Position numbers and translations under genes: made by a program. From a virus: DNA of 64,000 nt. Below the pieces are notes generated by a model, which had not been told where the DNA came from, did no database searches, and saw nothing but the letters and a program-made list of their open reading frames with translations. Below are positions 27,856-55,266 of the stretch, piece after piece; the first letter of the stretch is position 1; the number at the start of each line of letters is the position of its first letter. The stretch covers positions 1 through 64,000 of the IMG/VR virus record IMGVR_UViG_3300036774_000066. One strand, 5' to 3'.

Positions 27856-28089
27856 TTAACTAATAGGATTCAAATTCACACTCAACGTAGTGTCCAAGTA
27901 ATTCAAAACCCGAAGCATCGCACTCTGCTCAGAAAAGGTCAACAACATCGCACCACCAGCAATATTTATCAGCTTGATATTCAAATTTTCCACTTTGTAA
28001 GCAATCACATTATTCAAATCAACTCGCAAGCCGGACAAAATACTATTCTCTGCCTCGGAGTCAACAACTATCCTAACAAACTGTGCCAT
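27856..28089 (-). CDS. hypothetical protein
   Basis: GGAGG RBS; between terminase and portal. Confidence 0.55.
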   Translation of the reverse strand: MAQFVRIVVDSEAENSILSGLRVDLNNVIAYKVENLNIKLINIAGGAMLLTFSEQSAMLRVLNYLDTTLSVNLNPIS

Positions 28090-28098
28090 AACTGCCTC

Positions 28099-30222
28099 CT
28101 ATATTGACGAAAAAAGACCGTAATCTATTCCATTTCTTTCAGTGTCATCAAGAACCCGCACAAGTTTCAATTTCCTTCCATCTTTGCTGTAATTAGCAGG
28201 AACAAGCCAACTCTCATCCTTCTTTTCCTCGGGCCTCATCCCAATAGTAAACACAATATCATTGACAACCTCACTATTTGTTCTCGCTGTTACATAAGAC
28301 GGTTCTGCCTCAACAGCGTTAGCAATAGACCCAACGAGAGCATCACTTACTCCTTTATCACCTTTTGAACCGTCTTCATTTACATCAGGGTGATCTACCT
28401 TTTTTGCATCTGTAAAGTGATTAAGGTTAAACCACTCCCTCTCCAAAATCGAGTATGTGTACATTACAAGTCTATCTTCATAAATCAAATCTACTGCCAA
28501 AAGATAGGCCGAATCGTCTTTATCGACGGACCTCCTTGCTGCATTAAATTGATTGGCAGTAAATATTTGAATTGTGTCTTCACTTTGAAATTGGTCCAGG
28601 GTGATCTTCCCAAACCTCATTCCCATCAGGCGCAACATAAAGAAAAACTCTCGTATCTTTGCAAAAGAGATTCTATCTGGATTCTTAGGAGCAATTATCG
28701 AAAGCACAATATCCGTCTCTATCTTCGGTATCCTTAACAAAGTATTAGGGTCTTCTATCATTTCTGAAATATGCACAATGGCAAGCCCTAACGTATCTCC
28801 TGTTGTTGCATAATCAAGGTGTGCATATCTCAAGGCTTCCGGGTGCCTCTTCAAACCACGATATACTTTTCTTCCCTCTTCTATCGTCTCATTAAACAAA
28901 ATATCGGGCTTAAAATAATCCGATAGATGTTGTTGGGTCTTCAAAGAAATAGTGAATGTCTCTTTAGTAAACGGATGCTGTATATCAGAGGAAATACACT
29001 TCTGCCACGCAAACTTAGAGGAAAACAACTTACCAGAAGGAGAAATCGACACACCACCAATGTTTCTTAATGCTCCGTAAATATCATCACGGAAGTTCTG
29101 CTTAAAATCCTTGGGAACAGAGATAAAATTGTCAACAAACTTCAATGGTAACTCAGACATTACTCTGCTAATAGCAACATCCGTATTTATGTCTACACCA
29201 GCGGCGACCAACTTATCCCTTGTCTCAAGTACCTTTATCCTAACACTATCCGAACCCATTGTTATCAGGTCATTGACAGATTCAATAAGAAAGGCATCCT
29301 CTTTCTCCGTTCCTTTGAACACATAAAATCTTTCCTCAGAATAATTCCCCGGCTTTACATCCCACAAAGTTGTGATGTAGATAGTCGCCGTATTATACTG
29401 AGTTGCTTGACGTATACGTGAAGATACAAAGGAAGACTGAATTGACGCAGATGAAATAATAGCAGAAAATCCGGGGTCATATCCTTTCATCATAAAACGA
29501 GACATACGACGGTCAGTTACTTCTCTGTAAATCTTAGATGCTTTGTTAGCATCCCCAACCGTTGCAGCACCAGACCCACCTCTGCGGTAAAAGTCTGCCT
29601 CGTCCATGATGCAGCCGAACAAGTTAGTTGATATAACGGAGAGGTTATCAGAACCGGGGAGAATAGCAATGCGCTGTGGAAATTTCAAAACAGACTTGAA
29701 TGTTCTGTCTCGTGGAAACTCTTTTCGGAAGTACGGTATCGAATCCACCATTGACCGGAACTGCCCAAACCCCACCCTTTCCGCATGTGTCATGTTAATA
29801 GACAAATAAGCAAACACTATGTCCGTCATATCGGACAAACCAAATAACCTCTGCGGAAAATCATAACATGACAACTCATACAGCTTTCTCAGCCAACATA
29901 CAAAAGCGAATGTAGTCTTGCCTGCCCCGATGCTTCCTGACAAAATTAGTTCTGGTTTCTTAGAATTTATATACCTCGGCAATGCCTCTTTCCAATAGGG
30001 GTACAAGTCCTTTGCAAGAGAACCCAAGAAGTATGTATAGTTTACCCAATTGTCAATCGGGACCATCTCTTTAACTTGGGTCGCTGTTAAAACACCAGAC
30101 TCTTGAGAAATAGCACTGCCAAGCAAGTTCTCAATTGCTGAAAACTGATCGTCTGGAACACCCTCAAAAAACTTGAGAGTGTCCGCAGAAATCTTCTCCG
30201 ACAAGTCTTCTTTTTTATTCAT
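28099..30222 (-). CDS. terL: terminase large subunit
   Basis: Walker A GSIGAGKT, Walker B CIMDE, RNase H-like HLDYATTGD, DQFQS, KVDHP..VSDAL. Confidence 0.92.
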   Translation of the reverse strand: MNKKEDLSEKISADTLKFFEGVPDDQFSAIENLLGSAISQESGVLTATQVKEMVPIDNWVNYTYFLGSLAKDLYPYWKEALPRYINSKKPELILSGSIGAGKTTFAFVCWLRKLYELSCYDFPQRLFGLSDMTDIVFAYLSINMTHAERVGFGQFRSMVDSIPYFRKEFPRDRTFKSVLKFPQRIAILPGSDNLSVISTNLFGCIMDEADFYRRGGSGAATVGDANKASKIYREVTDRRMSRFMMKGYDPGFSAIISSASIQSSFVSSRIRQATQYNTATIYITTLWDVKPGNYSEERFYVFKGTEKEDAFLIESVNDLITMGSDSVRIKVLETRDKLVAAGVDINTDVAISRVMSELPLKFVDNFISVPKDFKQNFRDDIYGALRNIGGVSISPSGKLFSSKFAWQKCISSDIQHPFTKETFTISLKTQQHLSDYFKPDILFNETIEEGRKVYRGLKRHPEALRYAHLDYATTGDTLGLAIVHISEMIEDPNTLLRIPKIETDIVLSIIAPKNPDRISFAKIREFFFMLRLMGMRFGKITLDQFQSEDTIQIFTANQFNAARRSVDKDDSAYLLAVDLIYEDRLVMYTYSILEREWFNLNHFTDAKKVDHPDVNEDGSKGDKGVSDALVGSIANAVEAEPSYVTARTNSEVVNDIVFTIGMRPEEKKDESWLVPANYSKDGRKLKLVRVLDDTERNGIDYGLFSSI

Positions 30223-47885: not shown

Positions 47886-48701
47886 CTACTTTCCTATTAC
47901 CACTCCACCGGGCTGTCCATCAATAATGGTAAAGGAAACACCAGTATTCTTTGCAGCAATGTCCTTGTACGTATCATACTTCTTGAAAAGCATGTACTCA
48001 GGGTTACGCCGCAATGCCTTTCCAAGTGAGTCAATCGTGGCTACTTGCGCCAATGATGCCTGCTTCGCATTCTCCGCTGCCCAAACAGTTTCATCCTGCT
48101 TGATATTGGAGAACTTCGCATTCTGCATAAGCAACGGCACCCCGGACGCTTTGAACGATTCAATTGCCATTGCAGACCCTTTTGTGCTCGCCCCGTCCAT
48201 GTCTACAACAACAGAATTGTAATCAGGATACTTACTAAGAACAGACCGAACACCTGACCGAATATCCATCTTGGCAAACTGAGTGTAGATAGCGTCAATC
48301 GTTATCACCGACACACGATCCATACTGGTAGACTTTGGAGTCATCTGTGCAAAAACCGCATTGCGTGTGTCAAGGTCAGCAGCTACCGCGCACCTAACAT
48401 AAAAATCAACAGTACACGGTGTCTTATTGATTATCACCCGGTCATCCTCCCCGTTCCCTCCATCCTTCCCAAAATGTTCCTTGATAGCAACTGACGTAGC
48501 CTCAAGTATAACAAGTACGTTCTTTGTTCCGTTAGGATTACCTGTCCCAATGTCAACCATGCCCGCCTCACGAACTCCCTTTTCCCACCCTGTCGGAGTA
48601 AGAATCTTTCCGACATATCCAGCAGGAATTTGCCGATACTCTTCACATCCGAGAAACACAAACGCCATCAGGCAAACCAAACCAACCAATCCGTACCTCA
48701 T
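47886..48701 (-). CDS. SPFH/band-7 family lipoprotein
   Basis: Lipobox FLGC, IPAGYVG, C-terminal ALRRNPEY..K. Confidence 0.75.
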   Translation of the reverse strand: MRYGLVGLVCLMAFVFLGCEEYRQIPAGYVGKILTPTGWEKGVREAGMVDIGTGNPNGTKNVLVILEATSVAIKEHFGKDGGNGEDDRVIINKTPCTVDFYVRCAVAADLDTRNAVFAQMTPKSTSMDRVSVITIDAIYTQFAKMDIRSGVRSVLSKYPDYNSVVVDMDGASTKGSAMAIESFKASGVPLLMQNAKFSNIKQDETVWAAENAKQASLAQVATIDSLGKALRRNPEYMLFKKYDTYKDIAAKNTGVSFTIIDGQPGGVVIGK

Positions 48702-49051
48702 TTCGCCTCCCCTTTGTTAGAGTTAGTAGAATTAAGAATACGTTGCTCATACGCCTTTTGCTGATCCAATACCTGACTCCGATCAATCACACCACGCGGA
48801 GTAGCATTGACGGACAGGGAAGACAGCAGGAACAAGGCGTAACCCACCCATGCAAGCCCGGCAATTGTCCACGCTACCCTCTTGACAAGTGCCTTGACCT
48901 TCATTTCATGCAATTCGTCATTGTCACCTTCGCCAAACAAGAACAACCGCCAGGAAAACCTACACACAACGGTCACAGCAACAAACAAGACAATCAACGC
49001 TATGACTAATCGCAATAGTGATGGACCATAGATTCTTAGCAGGTCAACCAT
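48698..49051 (-). CDS. two-TM membrane protein
   Basis: Two hydrophobic helices; AAGGAGG RBS upstream. Confidence 0.65.
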   Translation of the reverse strand: MVDLLRIYGPSLLRLVIALIVLFVAVTVVCRFSWRLFLFGEGDNDELHEMKVKALVKRVAWTIAGLAWVGYALFLLSSLSVNATPRGVIDRSQVLDQQKAYEQRILNSTNSNKGEAK

Positions 49052-49071
49052 TAAGAAACCTCCTTTGAAAA

Positions 49072-49867
49072 ATGCGAAACAAAGCTACACTATACTTCAC
49101 CAAAACACCACGGCACAGGCTCCAACACCACCGCAACACCACCCAACGGTACGTTACTCTACCGTCACTCGACATAACGATTCCCAACTCAACCTCACCG
49201 CCGCAAGACAGAACCAAACTTCACCGAAACACTGCGGCACGGAACCAAACCCTACCACAACCGCGCCCTACTGAACATGACGCTACCGTCAAGGAACTTG
49301 ACCGCACAATACGTCACCACAACCAGACGTTAGCATACCGGACAAAACCCAACCCTACCATCACATCATGGCACGACACGATACCTCCACAGAACATAAC
49401 TTCACCACTACGCCACGAGACAATACTCTACCGTCACCCATCGGCACGATACTATACCAAAACGTGACTGCACCTTACCAAGACAAGACGTAACGGCACT
49501 ACACCTTACCACGACAGGACGTGATAGAACGTCACGTCACCTCACCAAGACACTATCTCACCTGACCGAACCAAGACGTTAGGATACCTCACTGCGCAAT
49601 ACTTAACCGTCCCCCAACATAACGATTCCAAACCCGACCTCACCGGAACACTACGCGACTGCACCCAACTCCACCACGACAATACCTCACCCTACCCCAC
49701 GTAACGATACCGTGACCAAACATCTCCCGACATTACAACACCAGAACATCACACTACGTCAAGGCACTCCACTTTACCACCACCAGAAAACACATAATGA
49801 AACGTAACCTCACCGAAACCGAAACCGGACCGCACTGTACCTAACCAATACAAACATTACCATTACG
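49072..49867 (-). ncRNA. pentamer-periodic array (NGT-NN)n in YGGT-delimited blocks; putative guide-RNA array of the adjacent RAMP protein (VIPR-like)
   Basis: Hand parse of 49072-49847: 150 pentamers NNACN on + (129 with AC at positions 3-4) in 26 blocks, each ending ACC plus one extra base. Confidence 0.8.
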
Positions 49868-49871
49868 TTAT

Positions 49872-50546
49872 CTACTCAACCTTTGTCAAGGTATAGTCAA
49901 ACTTCCCATAGATACCAGAATTATGCCACTGACCAAAACCCTTGACATCGCGTGAATAGTCAAAAAGAAGACGCAGAATTTCCTCCGTTGCACAAAACTT
50001 CGGAATCTCATAGCAAGTAACCTGACACTCAAAAAAAGCACCCGCTTCAATCATCTCACTCCGAGCCAAGGAAACTCGTGGACCTTGCTTAGTCATAGCA
50101 CGAAGAGGACGCTCCAAAAATCCGATAGGTTTATCTGTAATCAAACGGATTCTGTGAGGATTGACAGCAACAGACTTGTCAATATTGGAGCGAAAGTTAG
50201 AAAGAGTCTCGTCAACCTCTTCTTCCTTCTTCATTTTCTTCTTGCCCGTAACAAAACCATTTAATGCCTCCGCTGACGCTTTCAAAACCCCCTTGACAAC
50301 ATAGCTGTAAAGAATGGGCATACCGTCAGTATCTCGATGAAAAACCGTTGTACCTTTCTCAACCTCTTCAGGGAGAGTACCCGTTTCTTCGATAATCGCA
50401 CTCGCCAAGGCAGGATTTTTCTCGATTGCCTTCTTCGTCAAGAACTCACTCGCCGGAGTATCCTTACCAGGAAGACTCCCCAAGATCGGCTCTACAAACA
50501 TCACTTTCAAATTGTACACACTACGGGCAAGAACAAGACCAGACAT
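49872..50546 (-). CDS. solitary Cas7/Csm3-like RAMP protein (Vipr-like)
   Basis: RAMP hallmarks: LKVMFVEPILGS strand, DGMPILYSYVVKGVLK (cf. PxIPGSSLKGxLR), SEMIEAGAFFECQV, C-terminal Gly loop GFGQWHNSGIYGKF. Confidence 0.8.
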   Translation of the reverse strand: MSGLVLARSVYNLKVMFVEPILGSLPGKDTPASEFLTKKAIEKNPALASAIIEETGTLPEEVEKGTTVFHRDTDGMPILYSYVVKGVLKASAEALNGFVTGKKKMKKEEEVDETLSNFRSNIDKSVAVNPHRIRLITDKPIGFLERPLRAMTKQGPRVSLARSEMIEAGAFFECQVTCYEIPKFCATEEILRLLFDYSRDVKGFGQWHNSGIYGKFDYTLTKVE

Positions 50547-52146
50547 AACACACCCCTTTTGTTAGTAGTTAAAGCATCCTGTCAATCATCATCACAGTTC
50601 TTATCAGGATCAAGAATAGGTTCTACATCCCCCTCAAGGAAAATCTTTGTCTTCCCATTCTCAGCGTAAGGAGAGAAATTCATTAACTCGTCAAGGTCTT
50701 CCCTCGTTATATGTCTCTTTACGTAGAGCAACGAAACCAGCTTGGCACAAACCTTTCTTAATTCATTCAATTCCGATCTTAAAGACTCTATCTCTCCACT
50801 ACCAAAATCCATCCCCCTCATCACTCTATCAATATGCTCTTCAATAGGAGCAATATCAGTGACGTTAGTAAAGTACCCACGGGAAGTCTTAACAAGAACT
50901 TTGCGCCCGTTACATTCCATAAGCTACCTCTTTTTGAGGATTCAGTAAACCACGCTTCTTGACTTCATCACATACCGCCCGAAAATACTTCTTCTCCTCC
51001 CCTTTCAATCCCTCTTCATTCCGTCCAATCCGTATCCAAATAATCATCTCATTAAGCAATACGTCATTACTCATCTCTTCTACAGGAATTGGAAGAATAT
51101 TCACCCCAACACCTTCACTCATTCAGGCACCTCAGCCGTATCTGTCAACTGAGCACATACTATCTTAAAGCATTCATCACAAACTATGTCACACTGCGAC
51201 ACAGGAACACCAGGAAATAAGGCTTCCTTCTCCTCCAATGCCACTTCTTCGGAAACCTCTTTTTCAAAGATACCTCCACACATCGCACACTGAAATTCAT
51301 TGTCCTTCAAGTCCGGCATACTCTTTCCCTCTTTACATTTTAGGACGCAAGAAATAAATCATGCCAACATCAGCAGCAAAGACATTTACTTGTCGTTTAA
51401 TAGCAGAATCACCAAAGAAATCAATCAAGTCACAACGCAAAGGAAACCCGTTGAACGATACCATAACCGACTTAGTATCCTTTACAAACTGCTCACACTC
51501 CTGCAAGTCACCGTCTATCCTATCCTCTGAAATACCTCTACCAAACAATGACCGAAAAGAAGGTATGTCACCCTCTTTCTTATTAACTGCAAGAGCATCT
51601 ATCCAATATTTTGTGCCTAATCTTTTATCTACTAATTGCTGAATATCTGGCATACTCTTTACTCCATGTAAACAAACATCTTCTCCCGATTCATTGACTT
51701 CCACGTATATGTAAGAACTTTCAATTCCGGGCAATCCCTCACAATCTTTTCCAATTCATCAGGCTTCACCGCTGGCACCACGTTCTCCGATACCATCAAC
51801 GCTATCTGAAATACCAAATCCGTAAACTTCAAACCACCAGAAAAATCCTCCACGATCCTCATGATCGCAGTTTTTATCTGGGCTATCCTATCCTGATCCC
51901 TGTCATCATGTAATACGTCGGACATACCAAAACTCCTTAGACTGTTGCTATGTGATCGCTGGTAAGCACTGTAACACCGTCCTTTAGCACCTGAGTACGC
52001 TTTGCCACCTCTGCCTCTTCTAACCACCTCTCAACCTCATCTAACTCCCTACGGGCCTCCTCTGCATCAAGCCCACCCGCGTTAGTCATGTACAAAACCC
52101 TCTCCACAACCAACTTTGCTTTTTCAAACATAGCAGTAAATCCCTT

Positions 52147-55100
52147 CTACACGATCCAGAGTCTCCCGAAATGCTCCTCTTTGCCTTCCTTGTCATCATA
52201 TTTAATCCCGTCGAACCACCGCAAACCGTAGTAATCCGTGCCTTCCCCGTCATCTTTACTTAGCATAATACTAAATGGCAATTGTGTAAACTTATCAGGT
52301 GGACCGTCAAGATTGATTAAGTCCCAAGGAATCTCTACGGAATAGGTAGTAACATAACTGTCCTTTTCACGGGTTATCAACCCTGTAAACTTGGACCCCT
52401 TTGAACTATACTCCCCAACAGGGTAATCCTTCTCGTTTGCCGTCTTGCAAAGACCCATAATCATCTGTCCATCATCAGAACGTAAGGCCATACCAATCAC
52501 CGCCGCCTTCCCACCAGGACTCATTACACCAATCTTCAATCCATCCTCACAATGTATCCGGTCCATTGTCCTCTGAAAAGCCCGGTGTATAGGGTGAACT
52601 GCAATCACCTTTACAATTAAGAATTTGTCATTGTACCACGCCCTCCATGCTGCTCTCAAAGTATGCTGAATATCCTCTGCCTTCTTCTTCAAAGTCTCAG
52701 GAAATACAGCGTAAGGAAATTCACCCATACTATACAAAGGAGAAGGCTCCCTCGAAGCACAAGCAAAACTCGCCATGAGGCTTCTCTTGATCGAAATATT
52801 ATCATCCGGTGAAGAAACATCAACAGAAATTTCACCTACTGTAAAATTGACAACACCAAAAGGTATGCTGACAATGTGAGTCTCGTGTCCACCAAAAAAT
52901 TCTTGTCTGTTAATAAGAAACCCATTCCCAGACAACGCTATGTTAATAGTCCTTGTATGATTCGCGTTACTGGCAATAGTAACAACTACCTCTTTCCCAT
53001 TTTGTATAGAAAGTTCTATCTTTCTTACCTCTAACAATTCTCCTACGTGAACAGGTACACACATCCATCCTATTCCGTTATGTAAAACAACAGAGTAATC
53101 TCCAGCAACCGTTCCTTCACGGGTAACAACTTCTATCCAACTATCCTTCAAAGTAACTTCGAGTTCTCTTCTTAATACCGACCAACCCTTCCCTATAACG
53201 GTAGAAAATTTTTGTCCTGCTGCCTGTGGTGGAATAGCTATCGAAGGCTGTACCTCTCCATCACAAAATCTCTTGTCTACCTCTTCCTCCCAAGTCAACT
53301 TACTGTTCCATCCAAAAATCCTTGTTGCAATACCGTGTGAATCTTTCCAAATCTGAATACCAGAAAAAGGACTCAGCCATACAGTACGAGATAAACTCCA
53401 ACCTTTCAAAGGGAAATTCACCAATCCAATCAATTCCTGCACGTCAACCAACTCAAAGGGTGTATGCCACTGGTAAAAATCCACATCTTCCAAAGCAATT
53501 CTCTCGCTCAATTCCCTCGGAGTACCTAAGTCAAAAATGGCAGAAACTACCATGCAAGAATTTAAGTCATTCCCACTCTTTGACCAATCAAGCAACTCTA
53601 CATCTCTGTCTCCACTGCCAGACAATCCTAACTTCCTTCCCGTAATAGAGTTTTCCCAAAGTAAACCAACATCAGACGAGTTCTCTAAATAAATCAACAC
53701 TGCCTTTCCATGATTCCAAAAAACATTATTATCACTCCAATTATCCTCACAGCGGGGCATTTCTGGCATTCGAGAAATCCCACCCTTACTGTTATTCACG
53801 AAGAAATTGTTGTAGATTTTATTGCCAGAAGTAGTAGTGTGGACACCAAGATACTTATACCTATGAAGTAAAGCACGTATCTTTACCCCGTACTGTGTTC
53901 CCTTTACAAAATTGCGAAAGAAGTGAGCATTGTTTCCATCATGTGTGTAAAATCCACACTCAGCAGCATCGCTTCCCTCTCTGGTATCAATGATTGTATT
54001 ACTGTCAATCATGACAGGACCATCAGACATTTCATGGAAAATGCCGTATGGCTTGCTGTCAACTATTAAGTTCTGTGTGATCCTGTCTCTTGCACAATCC
54101 CCATCCAGCCATATACCATAACAACACCGCTCAATCTTGTTTTTCTTTATCAAGCTATCATCAACAGCATGAAACTTAATACCACACTCCTCACACGTAC
54201 CTACCACCCCAGGCTTTATACAATTGTCAACAATTTCATTATACTCAATACCTAAGTCATGCGAATAAAATGCCACAATGCCCGAGATTCCATTATCATG
54301 AATCTTGTTTCCTCTCACCGTATGAAATCCCCCCACGGAATGTTCTTTTATCCACTTCACAAAGGCATATATGTAAGGCTCCCCGTACTCTCCCAAATCA
54401 AGCATAGATATATCTTTATTTACAATGGGAATATTCATCGCACTCTTCGCAAATCCACCCATTCCCAAATTAAGTCCTTGTGCATTACCGTAAGATATTT
54501 CACAGTTTTCAATGGTAAAGTTAGCTCCTGCGTTCACATCAACTACGGACAACTGATTGACAGAATGCCACGTCGGTCCTGCCCAAATCGGGGCACAGCC
54601 GCCAACAAACCTAATTCCAGAAACCTTGATATTTTCCAAGCCCCTGACAATAGGCACAAAACACTGCTGCCTTACTGACCTTTCAACTTTACACCTACCC
54701 GGATGATCTGGTAAACAAACATAAATGCGAGAATTATCTTCATCCACCCACATTGAGTACAGACACAACTTCTCCTTCTCTTTTACTTCTGTCAACAAAA
54801 CACTGTTGACAAAAATCTGCTCACATCCCACATTCGGAGTAATACGTACATAGTAGATATTACTTTCATCACGAAACCACTCAGAACTCCATTCGTCCAT
54901 TGCGCACACTACCGGGGGAACTTCATCTTGTGCTGCCTCAATAGAAATTTCAGAACAATATGGCTTTATACACTCTCTGTAAACCCCTTCATGAATTATT
55001 ATCCTATCGCCAGGAAGAGCACTCTCCACAGCACACCGAACAGTCTTTACAGGTGACTGAAAAGAGCCGATGTTCTTATCGCTCCCTCGCATACTTGACA

Positions 55101-55266
55101 CATGAAAAGCAATAGAAGTATGCTTTTGTTTTGTTGCAGAGGCCCAAGCAGCATAGCCTCTAATCAATTCATCGTCAGAAGATTCAATCACAGAAGATAA
55201 ACTAAAGGAAGGATGGGCCTTCCCCTGTCCTATCAATGTCAACATTCTAAGATCGGGTGTTATCAT
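52147..55266 (-). CDS. right-handed beta-helix glycan hydrolase/lyase with a C-terminal CBM9-like domain
   Basis: GSDKNIGS..SPVKT..A...ALPGDRIIIHEGVYRE (DUF1565/GH120-like), PbH1 repeats (GIWLD, GIFHE), C-terminal WYNDKFL..YSVEIPW..FSIMLSKDD. Confidence 0.7.
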   Translation of the reverse strand: MITPDLRMLTLIGQGKAHPSFSLSSVIESSDDELIRGYAAWASATKQKHTSIAFHVSSMRGSDKNIGSFQSPVKTVRCAVESALPGDRIIIHEGVYRECIKPYCSEISIEAAQDEVPPVVCAMDEWSSEWFRDESNIYYVRITPNVGCEQIFVNSVLLTEVKEKEKLCLYSMWVDEDNSRIYVCLPDHPGRCKVERSVRQQCFVPIVRGLENIKVSGIRFVGGCAPIWAGPTWHSVNQLSVVDVNAGANFTIENCEISYGNAQGLNLGMGGFAKSAMNIPIVNKDISMLDLGEYGEPYIYAFVKWIKEHSVGGFHTVRGNKIHDNGISGIVAFYSHDLGIEYNEIVDNCIKPGVVGTCEECGIKFHAVDDSLIKKNKIERCCYGIWLDGDCARDRITQNLIVDSKPYGIFHEMSDGPVMIDSNTIIDTREGSDAAECGFYTHDGNNAHFFRNFVKGTQYGVKIRALLHRYKYLGVHTTTSGNKIYNNFFVNNSKGGISRMPEMPRCEDNWSDNNVFWNHGKAVLIYLENSSDVGLLWENSITGRKLGLSGSGDRDVELLDWSKSGNDLNSCMVVSAIFDLGTPRELSERIALEDVDFYQWHTPFELVDVQELIGLVNFPLKGWSLSRTVWLSPFSGIQIWKDSHGIATRIFGWNSKLTWEEEVDKRFCDGEVQPSIAIPPQAAGQKFSTVIGKGWSVLRRELEVTLKDSWIEVVTREGTVAGDYSVVLHNGIGWMCVPVHVGELLEVRKIELSIQNGKEVVVTIASNANHTRTINIALSGNGFLINRQEFFGGHETHIVSIPFGVVNFTVGEISVDVSSPDDNISIKRSLMASFACASREPSPLYSMGEFPYAVFPETLKKKAEDIQHTLRAAWRAWYNDKFLIVKVIAVHPIHRAFQRTMDRIHCEDGLKIGVMSPGGKAAVIGMALRSDDGQMIMGLCKTANEKDYPVGEYSSKGSKFTGLITREKDSYVTTYSVEIPWDLINLDGPPDKFTQLPFSIMLSKDDGEGTDYYGLRWFDGIKYDDKEGKEEHFGRLWIV

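What the first reader, a model, noticed from the sequence alone, without database searches (positions are those of the whole stretch)
49072..50546. Solitary Cas7-like RAMP gene coupled to a 5-nt-periodic RNA array: candidate non-CRISPR RNA-guided system (VIPR-like)
Seen: the 224-aa ORF has the Cas7/Csm3 RAMP signatures (P-x-L-x-S-x-x-x-K-G helix, E-x-I-x-x-G-x-x-F strand, C-terminal Gly loop). No cas1, cas5, cas6 or cas10 and no classical CRISPR array lie next to it. Starting 5 nt after its stop codon, on the same strand, is ~800 nt of invariant-plus-variable pentamers (transcribed NGT-NN; 129 of 150 keep GT). Established: Cas7 proteins polymerise along guide RNA with a fixed nucleotide step per subunit. 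Inference: each subunit binds one pentamer's constant bases and the variable bases spell a gapped target, for example in competing phages or host genes. From memory this matches the recently reported phage VIPR systems (RAMP protein plus GGY/NN repeat RNA). I cannot verify that here, and this array differs because its constant core is only GT.
Basis: partly seen in the sequence, partly recalled or inferred. Interest (0 to 1): 0.97.

Follow-up and report, generated by a model that had tools for sequence, protein, structure and literature searches.

The report
Phage VIPR locus, staggered guide array
A large uncultivated phage carries a small Cas7-like protein followed by an 800-base array of 5-base repeats; this is a clear member of the VIPR RNA-guided systems first reported in 2026, in their little-studied "staggered array" form, so it is real and interesting but not a new kind of system.

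Summary
ORF 49872-50546 (-) folds confidently as a minimal Cas7-type RAMP. Bases 49866-49070 on the same strand form a 5-nt-periodic array: 130 of 153 pentamers keep GT.

The array has a second level of order. It consists of 26-27 consecutive units of the form (GT-NNN)n+G, each 5n+1 nt long. All 26 junctions slip the phase by +1 at a YG|GTR motif.

The protein family is large, with 1188 cluster representatives. It aligns profile-to-profile over nearly its full length with the Vipr family of phage SUSP1. In 73 of 83 homologous loci an array of the same kind lies directly beside the gene, with the same 5n+1 units.

VIPR systems were published as 2026 preprints. Those papers already mention staggered 1-nt-overlapping arrays and degenerate YNNNG or WGT/NN repeats. 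I therefore class this as a new member of a known kind.

Not shown here: expression, processing, the targets, or the reading rule. My target searches found nothing above chance. A side lead remains open: the base before GT may carry target information.

Earlier scan notes describe this same stretch (its own and an overlapping window), not other DNA.

The parts
49872..50546 (-). vipr gene: a 224-aa minimal Cas7-like RAMP (P0001). Domain order in the model: RRM strand 1 (8-17), helical bundle (31-65), helix-1 (81-94), thumb beta-hairpin (141-166), G-loop (203-214, GFGQWHNSGIYG).
   Evidence: AF2 model pLDDT 86, pTM 0.80. Foldseek against PDB gives Cas7, Csm3 and Cas7-11 at probability 1.0. BFVD and ESM Atlas neighbours are viral 'RAMP superfamily' clusters. 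hhalign to the SUSP1 Vipr family gives probability 85.7%, E 5.5e-6. There is a weak Cmr4 hit in PADLOC.
49070..49866 (-). Staggered vrRNA array: 27 head-to-tail units of the form (GU-NNN)n+G, with n = 1-8. Unit starts on the minus strand: 49866, 49860, 49819, 49813, 49777, 49741, 49710, 49674, 49643, 49607, 49571, 49545, 49509, 49478, 49457, 49431, 49405, 49384, 49358, 49317, 49286, 49255, 49229, 49198, 49162, 49131, 49100.
   Evidence: Autocorrelation, Viterbi phase tracking and the exact parse. Homologous loci show the same unit lengths of 21, 26, 31, 36 and 41 nt, and +1 slips at 1154 of 1377 junctions.
49318..49358 (-). Example of one unit, the longest clean guide: 8 pentamers plus the closing G, 41 nt. 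The junction motif YG|GTR lies at both ends.
   Evidence: This unit was used for the target scans.
49920..49948 (-). Weak sigma-70-like site with an extended -10, inside the 3' end of vipr and about 55 nt before the array. It is a possible internal promoter, but the count of such sites in the region is at chance level.
   Evidence: 4 sites found against 5.7 expected from shuffles. This is not evidence of function.

Best explanation
This is a VIPR (Viral Interference Programmable Repeat) system carried by a ~157-kb tailed phage. It consists of a Vipr protein (a minimal Cas7-like RAMP) and, just after its stop codon on the same strand, a 'staggered' vrRNA array.

Proposed mechanism, by analogy with SUSP1 VIPR:
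1. The array is transcribed with, or just after, vipr.
2. One Vipr protomer binds each 5-nt repeat and flips out and sequesters the constant G-U core.
3. The variable bases are presented for gapped pairing with double-stranded DNA of a competing phage, satellite or prophage. That element is then silenced.

Two features are specific to this clade:
- Only G2 and Y3 of the canonical GGY are kept (NGY/NN).
- A single extra G after every 4-8 repeats breaks the 5-nt register. The ~800-nt transcript is thereby divided into about 26 short guides, each roughly one turn of the Vipr helix.

Shown here: the fold, homology to Vipr, the array grammar, and conservation of both the gene-array pairing and the grammar across the family.

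Inferred: transcription, filament formation, cutting or termination at the punctuation, DNA (rather than RNA) targeting, the 1-nt-skip rule, and the anti-competitor role.
For: Fold: confident RAMP model with Cas7-family structural matches only.

Homology: profile-profile alignment with the SUSP1 Vipr family over 193 columns. I located the SUSP1 locus and its GGTNN vrRNAs myself.

G-loop residues: the tryptophan that stacks on G2 in SUSP1 (W178) is kept here as W207. Both G1 contacts are replaced: D177 becomes Q206 and H17 becomes S24. The same replacements occur in every clade member examined. This matches the loss of G1 conservation in the repeat, where G makes up only 12-47% of that column.

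Gene-array pairing: 73 of 83 homologous loci have a periodic tract of at least 160 nt directly adjacent to the gene, against 0.5% background. All GT-rich arrays are co-oriented with the gene.

Grammar: the 5n+1 unit grammar is family-wide.

Context: no cas genes and no Cas1. The genome is a phage, with portal and clamp-loader genes and 93% estimated completeness. No self-targets were found, as reported for other VIPRs.

Published precedent: staggered 1-nt-overlapping arrays and YNNNG or WGT/NN repeats are described.
Against: - There are no expression data.
- No target was found under any rule.
- No conserved accessory (vap) gene lies beside vipr in this locus or across the clade.
- There is no conserved 3' tail or pseudoknot like that of SUSP1 vrRNAs.
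- Guides of 4-8 repeats specify only 8-16 bases under the published NN rule, which is little specificity.
- The G-loop arginine that contacts Y3 in SUSP1 (R179, an arginine in at least 90% of this family) is histidine (H208) in this protein.
- The homology to SUSP1 Vipr is remote (85.7% probability), and the residue mapping depends on it.
- The preprint states that the staggered architecture was not among the array types confirmed by sRNA-seq.
Confidence: 0.82

Rival explanations
1. It is the same Vipr-plus-array system, but it uses a different reading rule. In this clade the base before the G-Y core (the former G1) is also read, so each G-U-delimited triplet pairs with three contiguous target bases (a codon). 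That would give short guides of 12-24 fully specified bases.
For: - That column is as variable as the two NN columns.
- Across 36 non-redundant arrays it depends on the preceding dinucleotide (chi-square 95 against 47 +/- 10 in within-locus shuffles, P < 1/2000).
- TAA, TAG and ATA are low and TAT is high.
- After marginals are removed, the conditional frequencies correlate with codon third-position usage (r = 0.42).
- The first two variable columns have compositions like codon positions 1 and 2.
- The residues that hold G1 in SUSP1 are replaced.
Against: - Part of the dependence is explained by avoidance of an out-of-phase G-T or G-C.
- TGA is not depleted, and total stop codons are not depleted once first and last triplets are removed.
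- Two contiguous-triplet patterns of 20 nt found nothing in IMG/VR.
- Among 240 distinct NNx hits, the skipped base equals this column in 23-29% of cases, which is chance level.
- In the SUSP1 structure the skipped DNA base sits in a protein pocket and is not paired.
Confidence: 0.1
2. The single-G slips do not delimit separate guides. The array works as one or a few long RNAs, for example a long Vipr-coated scaffold or decoy, and the slips only kink the filament.
For: - No processing signal, ribozyme or Rfam family lies in or beside the array.
- No cas6-like gene is nearby.
- No terminator or promoter signals exceed chance.
Against: - Unit lengths are sharply quantised at 5n+1 across the family.
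- Junctions carry a conserved motif, G-Y-R after the extra G.
- The first variable base of each unit is purine or A-rich, as a handle would be.
- The preprint's figure legend describes individual processed vrRNAs whose ends abut in staggered arrays.
Confidence: 0.06
3. The tract is not a guide RNA. It is either translated (for example the 131-aa ORF at 49072-49467 on the + strand) or acts only as a DNA-level repeat.
For: - ORFs of 46-131 aa overlap the array.
- Gene callers annotate a 71-aa 'gene' inside the array of L001.
Against: - The period is 5 nt with +1 slips, not 3 nt. No reading frame can keep a consistent meaning across it.
- The A/C-rich complement is poor in stop codons by composition alone.
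- The tract is tied to a RAMP gene in 73 of 83 loci and is co-oriented with it.
- The constant G-Y dinucleotide with variable flanks matches the RNA bound by Vipr in solved complexes.
Confidence: 0.02

Closest known systems
VIPR systems (Vipr protein plus vrRNA), type II of Escherichia phage SUSP1 and the Pseudomonas fulva prophage (bioRxiv 10.64898/2026.04.26.720920 and 10.64898/2026.04.26.720927)
   Same: - It is phage-encoded.
- It has a single minimal RAMP with RRM, helical bundle, helix-1, thumb and G-loop in the same order.
- The 5-nt repeat RNA is encoded next to the gene on the same strand.
- A constant G and pyrimidine alternate with variable bases.
- There are no cas genes.
- There is no self-targeting.
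   Different: - The repeat is NGU/NN rather than GGY/NN.
- The G1-contact residues are replaced (D177 to Q, H17 to S).
- There are 26-27 short guides of 1-8 repeats in one uninterrupted 800-nt tract. SUSP1 has four ~100-nt vrRNAs of 9-16 repeats, each with a 3' pseudoknot tail.
- No recognisable vap gene is present.
- Sequence similarity is detectable only profile-to-profile.
'Staggered vrRNA arrays' and alternative YNNNG repeats noted in the VIPR discovery preprint (fig. S18 legend and methods), and WGT/NN non-canonical clusters in bioRxiv 10.64898/2026.10.21.760802
   Same: - vrRNAs abut with a 1-nt offset or overlap, so the end of one marks the start of the next.
- The first position of the constant trinucleotide is degenerate.
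- A Vipr-like fold is encoded next to the array.
   Different: I could not see the figures or tables, so I cannot say whether this clade, this phage or this VIPR type number is among the published examples. The preprint says only the other two architectures were confirmed by sRNA-seq. The 5n+1 quantisation, the YG|GYR junction logo and the family-wide statistics given here are my own measurements.
Class 1 CRISPR-Cas backbone subunits (Cas7 family: type III Csm3/Cmr4, type VII Cas7, Cas7-11)
   Same: This is the best structural match (Foldseek probability 1.0, TM about 0.5). It has the RRM core, thumb hairpin and glycine-rich loop. In Class 1 complexes one subunit binds per fixed step of guide RNA.
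   Different: - The step is 5 nt, not 6 nt.
- There are no CRISPR repeats or spacers.
- There is no Cas5, Cas6, Cas10, Cas11 or Cas1.
- The guide is read discontinuously.
- Sequence identity is 9-14%.

Membership tests
VIPR | The protein is a minimal RAMP (RRM core, G-loop, thumb) without a second RRM | tested here: met
   AF2 model pLDDT 86. Cas7-family matches only. The protein is 224 aa with a single domain plus a helical bundle.
VIPR | The protein is homologous to reported Vipr proteins | tested here: met
   hhalign of a 54-sequence family alignment against a 34-sequence SUSP1 Vipr family alignment gives probability 85.7%, E 5.5e-6, over 193 of about 200 columns. The G-loop motif G-x-G-[DQ]-W-R...G-x-F is shared. 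The relationship is remote, so support is moderate. phmmer and tblastn do not connect the two families.
VIPR | A tandem 5-nt repeat RNA gene with constant and variable positions lies next to vipr | tested here: met
   The same holds in 73 of 83 homologous loci.
VIPR | Canonical GGY/NN repeat consensus | tested here: not met
   G2 is 93% and U3 is 92%, but the G1 column is G in only 27-29% of repeats. The discovery paper accepts 'a related consensus', naming NNNGG, YNNNG and NNNNG. This therefore excludes only the canonical subtype, not the family.
VIPR | No CRISPR array and no other cas genes; minimal locus; mostly viral | tested here: met
   The genome is a phage. The structural neighbour clusters are 88-98% viral.
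VIPR | An accessory vap gene lies beside vipr (typical, not universal) | tested here: not met
   Neighbouring ORFs have no family hits and no homologs in the other 83 loci. The only neighbours conserved across loci belong to one group of closely related phages. An HNH gene follows the homolog in L001 and L002.
VIPR | The vrRNA is expressed and co-purifies with Vipr | not testable with these tools
   Needs sRNA-seq and a pull-down.
VIPR | Targets double-stranded DNA by the 1-nt-skip (NNx) code | tested here: inconclusive
   No significant target was found in the own genome, in 0.8 Mb of related loci, or in IMG/VR pattern scans. Guides of 8-16 specified bases cannot reach significance singly.
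VIPR | Conserved 3' tail or pseudoknot capping each vrRNA (type II feature) | tested here: not met
   Units abut directly with only one extra G between them. There is no Rfam match. The whole-array fold has a z-score of only -2.7 on 20 shuffles.
Class 1 CRISPR-Cas | CRISPR repeat-spacer array plus Cas5/Cas6/large subunit and an adaptation module | tested here: not met

The most novel reading that the evidence does not exclude
In this NGY clade the former G1 position has been freed from protein recognition and now carries target information. Each G-U-delimited triplet would then read a whole codon of the target. In addition, the single-G punctuation would be a protein-only (Cas6-free) way to cut one transcript into about 26 guides of one helical turn each. 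This would be a second, denser VIPR code and a new guide-processing principle.
Probability: 0.1. Interest if true: 0.65.

Novelty: new member of a known kind. Interest (0 to 1): 0.4.

Why it matters
VIPR was described only in 2026. It is proposed to be the viral ancestor of CRISPR RAMPs and a new programmable way of recognising DNA.

This locus is a clean, large example of the least-characterised architecture. It has 26-27 guides, a staggered array, a two-base constant core and no accessory gene, and it sits in a near-complete 157-kb phage genome.

It offers a compact test bed for three questions:
- How are staggered arrays divided into guides without a tail or a ribozyme?
- How short can a functional VIPR guide be?
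- Does relaxing G1 recognition change the code?

It does not reveal a new class of system.

Tried and rejected
Searches and tests that found nothing or were set aside:
- Megablast of 6 kb against GenBank phages: no match.
- phmmer against PDB sequences: nothing relevant.
- Pfam and PHROGs for P0001: no hit.
- Rfam at a permissive threshold: no hit.
- Tandem Repeats Finder does not report the array, because its copies are too divergent.
- Public sequencing runs: none was listed and no RNA holder was listed.
- Guides from 47 arrays under seven rules (NN with 0-3 skipped bases, NNN with 0-2) against 0.78 Mb of related loci plus the own genome, with reversed patterns as control. There was only a 14% excess of exact NNx hits and no individually significant hit.
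- Own-genome search with the 26 window guides: best E-values were no better than the reversed controls.
- IMG/VR scan with the 41-nt guide under NNx: 14 hits (8 distinct sequences), with no consistent reading frame and skipped bases at chance.
- Two contiguous-triplet patterns of 20 nt in IMG/VR: 0 hits.
Co-occurrence of other guides in the 364 fetched loci was at the expected rate. This includes a recurring pair, guides 49710 and 49384, about 751 nt apart in eight related contigs, which counts as one event.
- Stop-codon depletion in the window's variable triplets: 3 observed against 6.9 expected, P = 0.05, which is not decisive.
- Correlation of G-loop residues 207 and 208 with U versus C in the core: no clear pattern beyond phylogeny.
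- Conserved neighbour (vap) search: none found.
- I could not assign a VIPR type number because the preprint's figures and tables are not held.
- Complex prediction was not used. A filament without its RNA is a poor test.

Full report
**The observation**

The 224-aa ORF at 49872-50546 on the minus strand is present. Five bases after its stop codon, on the same strand, a G/T-rich tract runs to 49070. It ends 19 nt before the start codon of the next gene.

Base identity at lag 5 is 0.46, against 0.21-0.29 at lags 1-4. Equally strong peaks at lags 26, 31 and 36 show that one extra base is inserted at regular intervals. Phase tracking and an exact parse give 26 units between 49860 and 49070, plus a 6-nt mini-unit at 49866-49861.

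Every unit has the form (GT-NNN)n followed by a single G, so it is 5n+1 nt long. Unit lengths are 6, 21, 26, 31, 36 or 41 nt. 130 of 153 cores are GT, and all 26 junctions shift the phase by +1. The junction reads YG|GTR, and the first variable base of a unit is nearly always a purine. Nothing comparable occurs elsewhere in the 156.6-kb genome.

**The protein**

Pfam, PHROGs and PDB sequence searches give nothing. PADLOC gives a marginal Cmr4 hit. The protein nevertheless belongs to a large family: 220 hits in the 90%-clustered collection and 1188 representatives at 50% identity.

With a 54-sequence alignment, AlphaFold2 gives a confident model (pLDDT 86, pTM 0.80). Its best PDB matches are all Cas7-family subunits: type VII Cas7, Csm3 and Cas7-11, at probability 1.0 and E about 1e-7. 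The nearest predicted viral structures are clusters labelled 'RAMP superfamily' that are 88-98% viral. The RAMP assignment stands.

**Comparison with published work**

The literature tool holds three 2026 preprints on VIPR systems and a fourth that recovers them with a language model. According to these papers:

- Vipr is a minimal RAMP found mostly in phages.
- Its vrRNAs consist of GGY/NN pentamers, with one protomer bound per pentamer.
- The GGY bases are flipped into protein pockets, and the NN bases pair with double-stranded DNA while every third target base is skipped.
- Natural targets are competing satellites and prophages.
- The discovery paper names seven types and alternative repeats (NNNGG, YNNNG, NNNNG).
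[quoted passage not shown] Only the other two architectures (ribozyme-interspersed and single-vrRNA) are stated to have been confirmed by sRNA-seq.
- The language-model paper adds WGT/NN and similar motifs next to Vipr-like folds.

**Membership test**

I located the SUSP1 locus in KT454805.2. It has two minus-strand genes at 28031-29061, flanked by intergenic GGTNN repeats with a structured tail. I collected the SUSP1 Vipr family and compared the two family profiles.

hhalign aligns them over 193 columns, with probability 85.7% and E 5.5e-6. The G-loops match: SUSP1 C-G-V-G-D177-W178-R179 aligns with K-G-F-G-Q206-W207-H208 here.

The structural paper assigns these contacts in SUSP1:

- G1 to H17 and D177.
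- G2 to R138 and W178.
- Y3 to a pocket that includes R179.

In this clade the tryptophan, or a phenylalanine, is kept. The two G1 contacts are S/T and Q in every member examined. That fits a repeat in which G2 and Y3 are conserved but G1 is free. This mapping rests on a remote alignment and is an inference.

**Conservation of the gene-array pairing**

I examined 83 loci encoding homologs: 80 from IMG/VR and 3 from other assemblies.

- 73 have a 5-nt-periodic tract of at least 160 nt directly next to the gene (47 downstream, 31 upstream, some both).
- 76 have one within 1.5 kb.
- Four of the seven exceptions have less than 400 nt of downstream flank, because the contig ends there.
- Only 0.5% of bases more than 2 kb away are periodic by the same criterion.

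The grammar is also conserved. 1154 of 1377 phase changes are +1, and unit lengths peak sharply at 21, 26, 31, 36 and 41 nt. The core is G-Y, with U or C dominant depending on the phage. All GT-rich arrays lie on the gene's coding strand. GC cores are strand-ambiguous because GC is its own complement.

This locus is therefore a typical member of a large Vipr clade with staggered NGY/NN arrays.

**Genomic context**

The genome is an IMG/VR virus record estimated to be 93% complete, with portal and clamp-loader genes. No Cas1 is present anywhere in it, and none of the ORFs flanking the locus matches a Cas family.

The flanking ORFs have no family assignment and no homologs in the other loci. No conserved accessory gene exists across the clade, so no vap gene can be named. 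Promoter-like and terminator-like sites are at chance frequency. The locus sits in a long co-directional gene string, so co-transcription is plausible but not shown.

**Targets and reading rule**

I could not identify targets. Under the published NNx rule these guides specify only 8-16 bases, too few for a single database hit to be significant.

- Local tests used 468 distinct guides from the family under seven rules, with reversed patterns as controls. They showed only a small excess for NNx and no significant individual hit.
- The window's guides have no better-than-control match in their own genome.
- Six IMG/VR pattern scans gave either chance-like hits or none.

One observation remains unexplained. 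The variable base that replaces G1 is not independent of the preceding dinucleotide (P < 1/2000 in within-locus shuffles). TAA, TAG and ATA are low and TAT is high, and there is a modest correlation with codon third-position usage. Part of this comes from avoidance of an out-of-phase G-Y. TGA is not depleted. The database tests gave no support for a contiguous-triplet code. I keep this as the low-probability novel reading.

**Verdict**

The thing is a VIPR system of the staggered, degenerate-core kind that the 2026 preprints already mention.

It is a new member of a known kind. It is valuable as a clean natural example of an architecture that has not been tested experimentally, and it is not a new class of system. 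An earlier scan note on this stretch (e1-5739050) read the gene-array pair the same way. Other notes on the same stretch (e1-5739041, e1-5739051, e1-5739052) had seen the punctuation and the codon-like triplets. I confirmed the punctuation and only partly supported the codon-like triplets.

Noticed in passing
L027:2440-6240 (IMGVR_UViG_3300005541_000008): A vipr homolog is flanked on both sides by staggered arrays: about 30 units upstream and about 63 units (1.6 kb) downstream, nearly all 21-31 nt long. This is the largest array seen here.
   Followed up: partly
L001:4656-5800 and L002:1543-2680: An HNH-domain gene (223 aa) lies between the vipr homolog and its array, and could be a nuclease-type accessory gene. 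Gene callers also annotate a 71-aa 'gene' inside the array itself.
   Followed up: no
window 49608-49643 and 49163-49198 (-): Two 36-nt units are paralogous. They share GGGAATCGTTATGT, including the same degenerate GA core, and differ at three variable dinucleotides. This looks like guide duplication and divergence, or two variants of one target.
   Followed up: no
window 49814-49819, 49861-49866 (-): Two 6-nt mini-units, each one pentamer plus G (GTTTCG, GTAATG), lie at the 5' end of the array. They are too short to guide anything and may be remnants or spacers.
   Followed up: no
window 49923-49925 (-), residue H208 of P0001: The G-loop residue aligned to SUSP1 R179 (which contacts Y3) is arginine in at least 90% of the family but histidine here and in two homologs (L007, L009). 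This array is unusually pure in U at Y3 (92%), but no clear residue-to-base correlation was found.
   Followed up: partly
window 48698-49051 (-) and 50582-50920 (-): The ORFs immediately flanking the locus are a 117-aa protein with hydrophobic stretches that read as membrane-spanning (by eye) and an acidic 112-aa protein. Neither has a family hit or a homolog beside other vipr genes. Whether either is an accessory protein is unknown.
   Followed up: partly
window 52147-55266 (-): A 1039-aa protein with a right-handed beta-helix / NosD domain, probably a tail fibre or depolymerase, lies 1.6 kb upstream of vipr.
   Followed up: no
L111, L112, L144, L155, L167, L206, L211, L212: Eight related IMG/VR contigs match guide 49710 (14 of 14 specified bases) and guide 49384 (10 of 10) on the same strand, about 751 nt apart. 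Statistically this is one event and is compatible with chance. The gene was not examined.
   Followed up: partly
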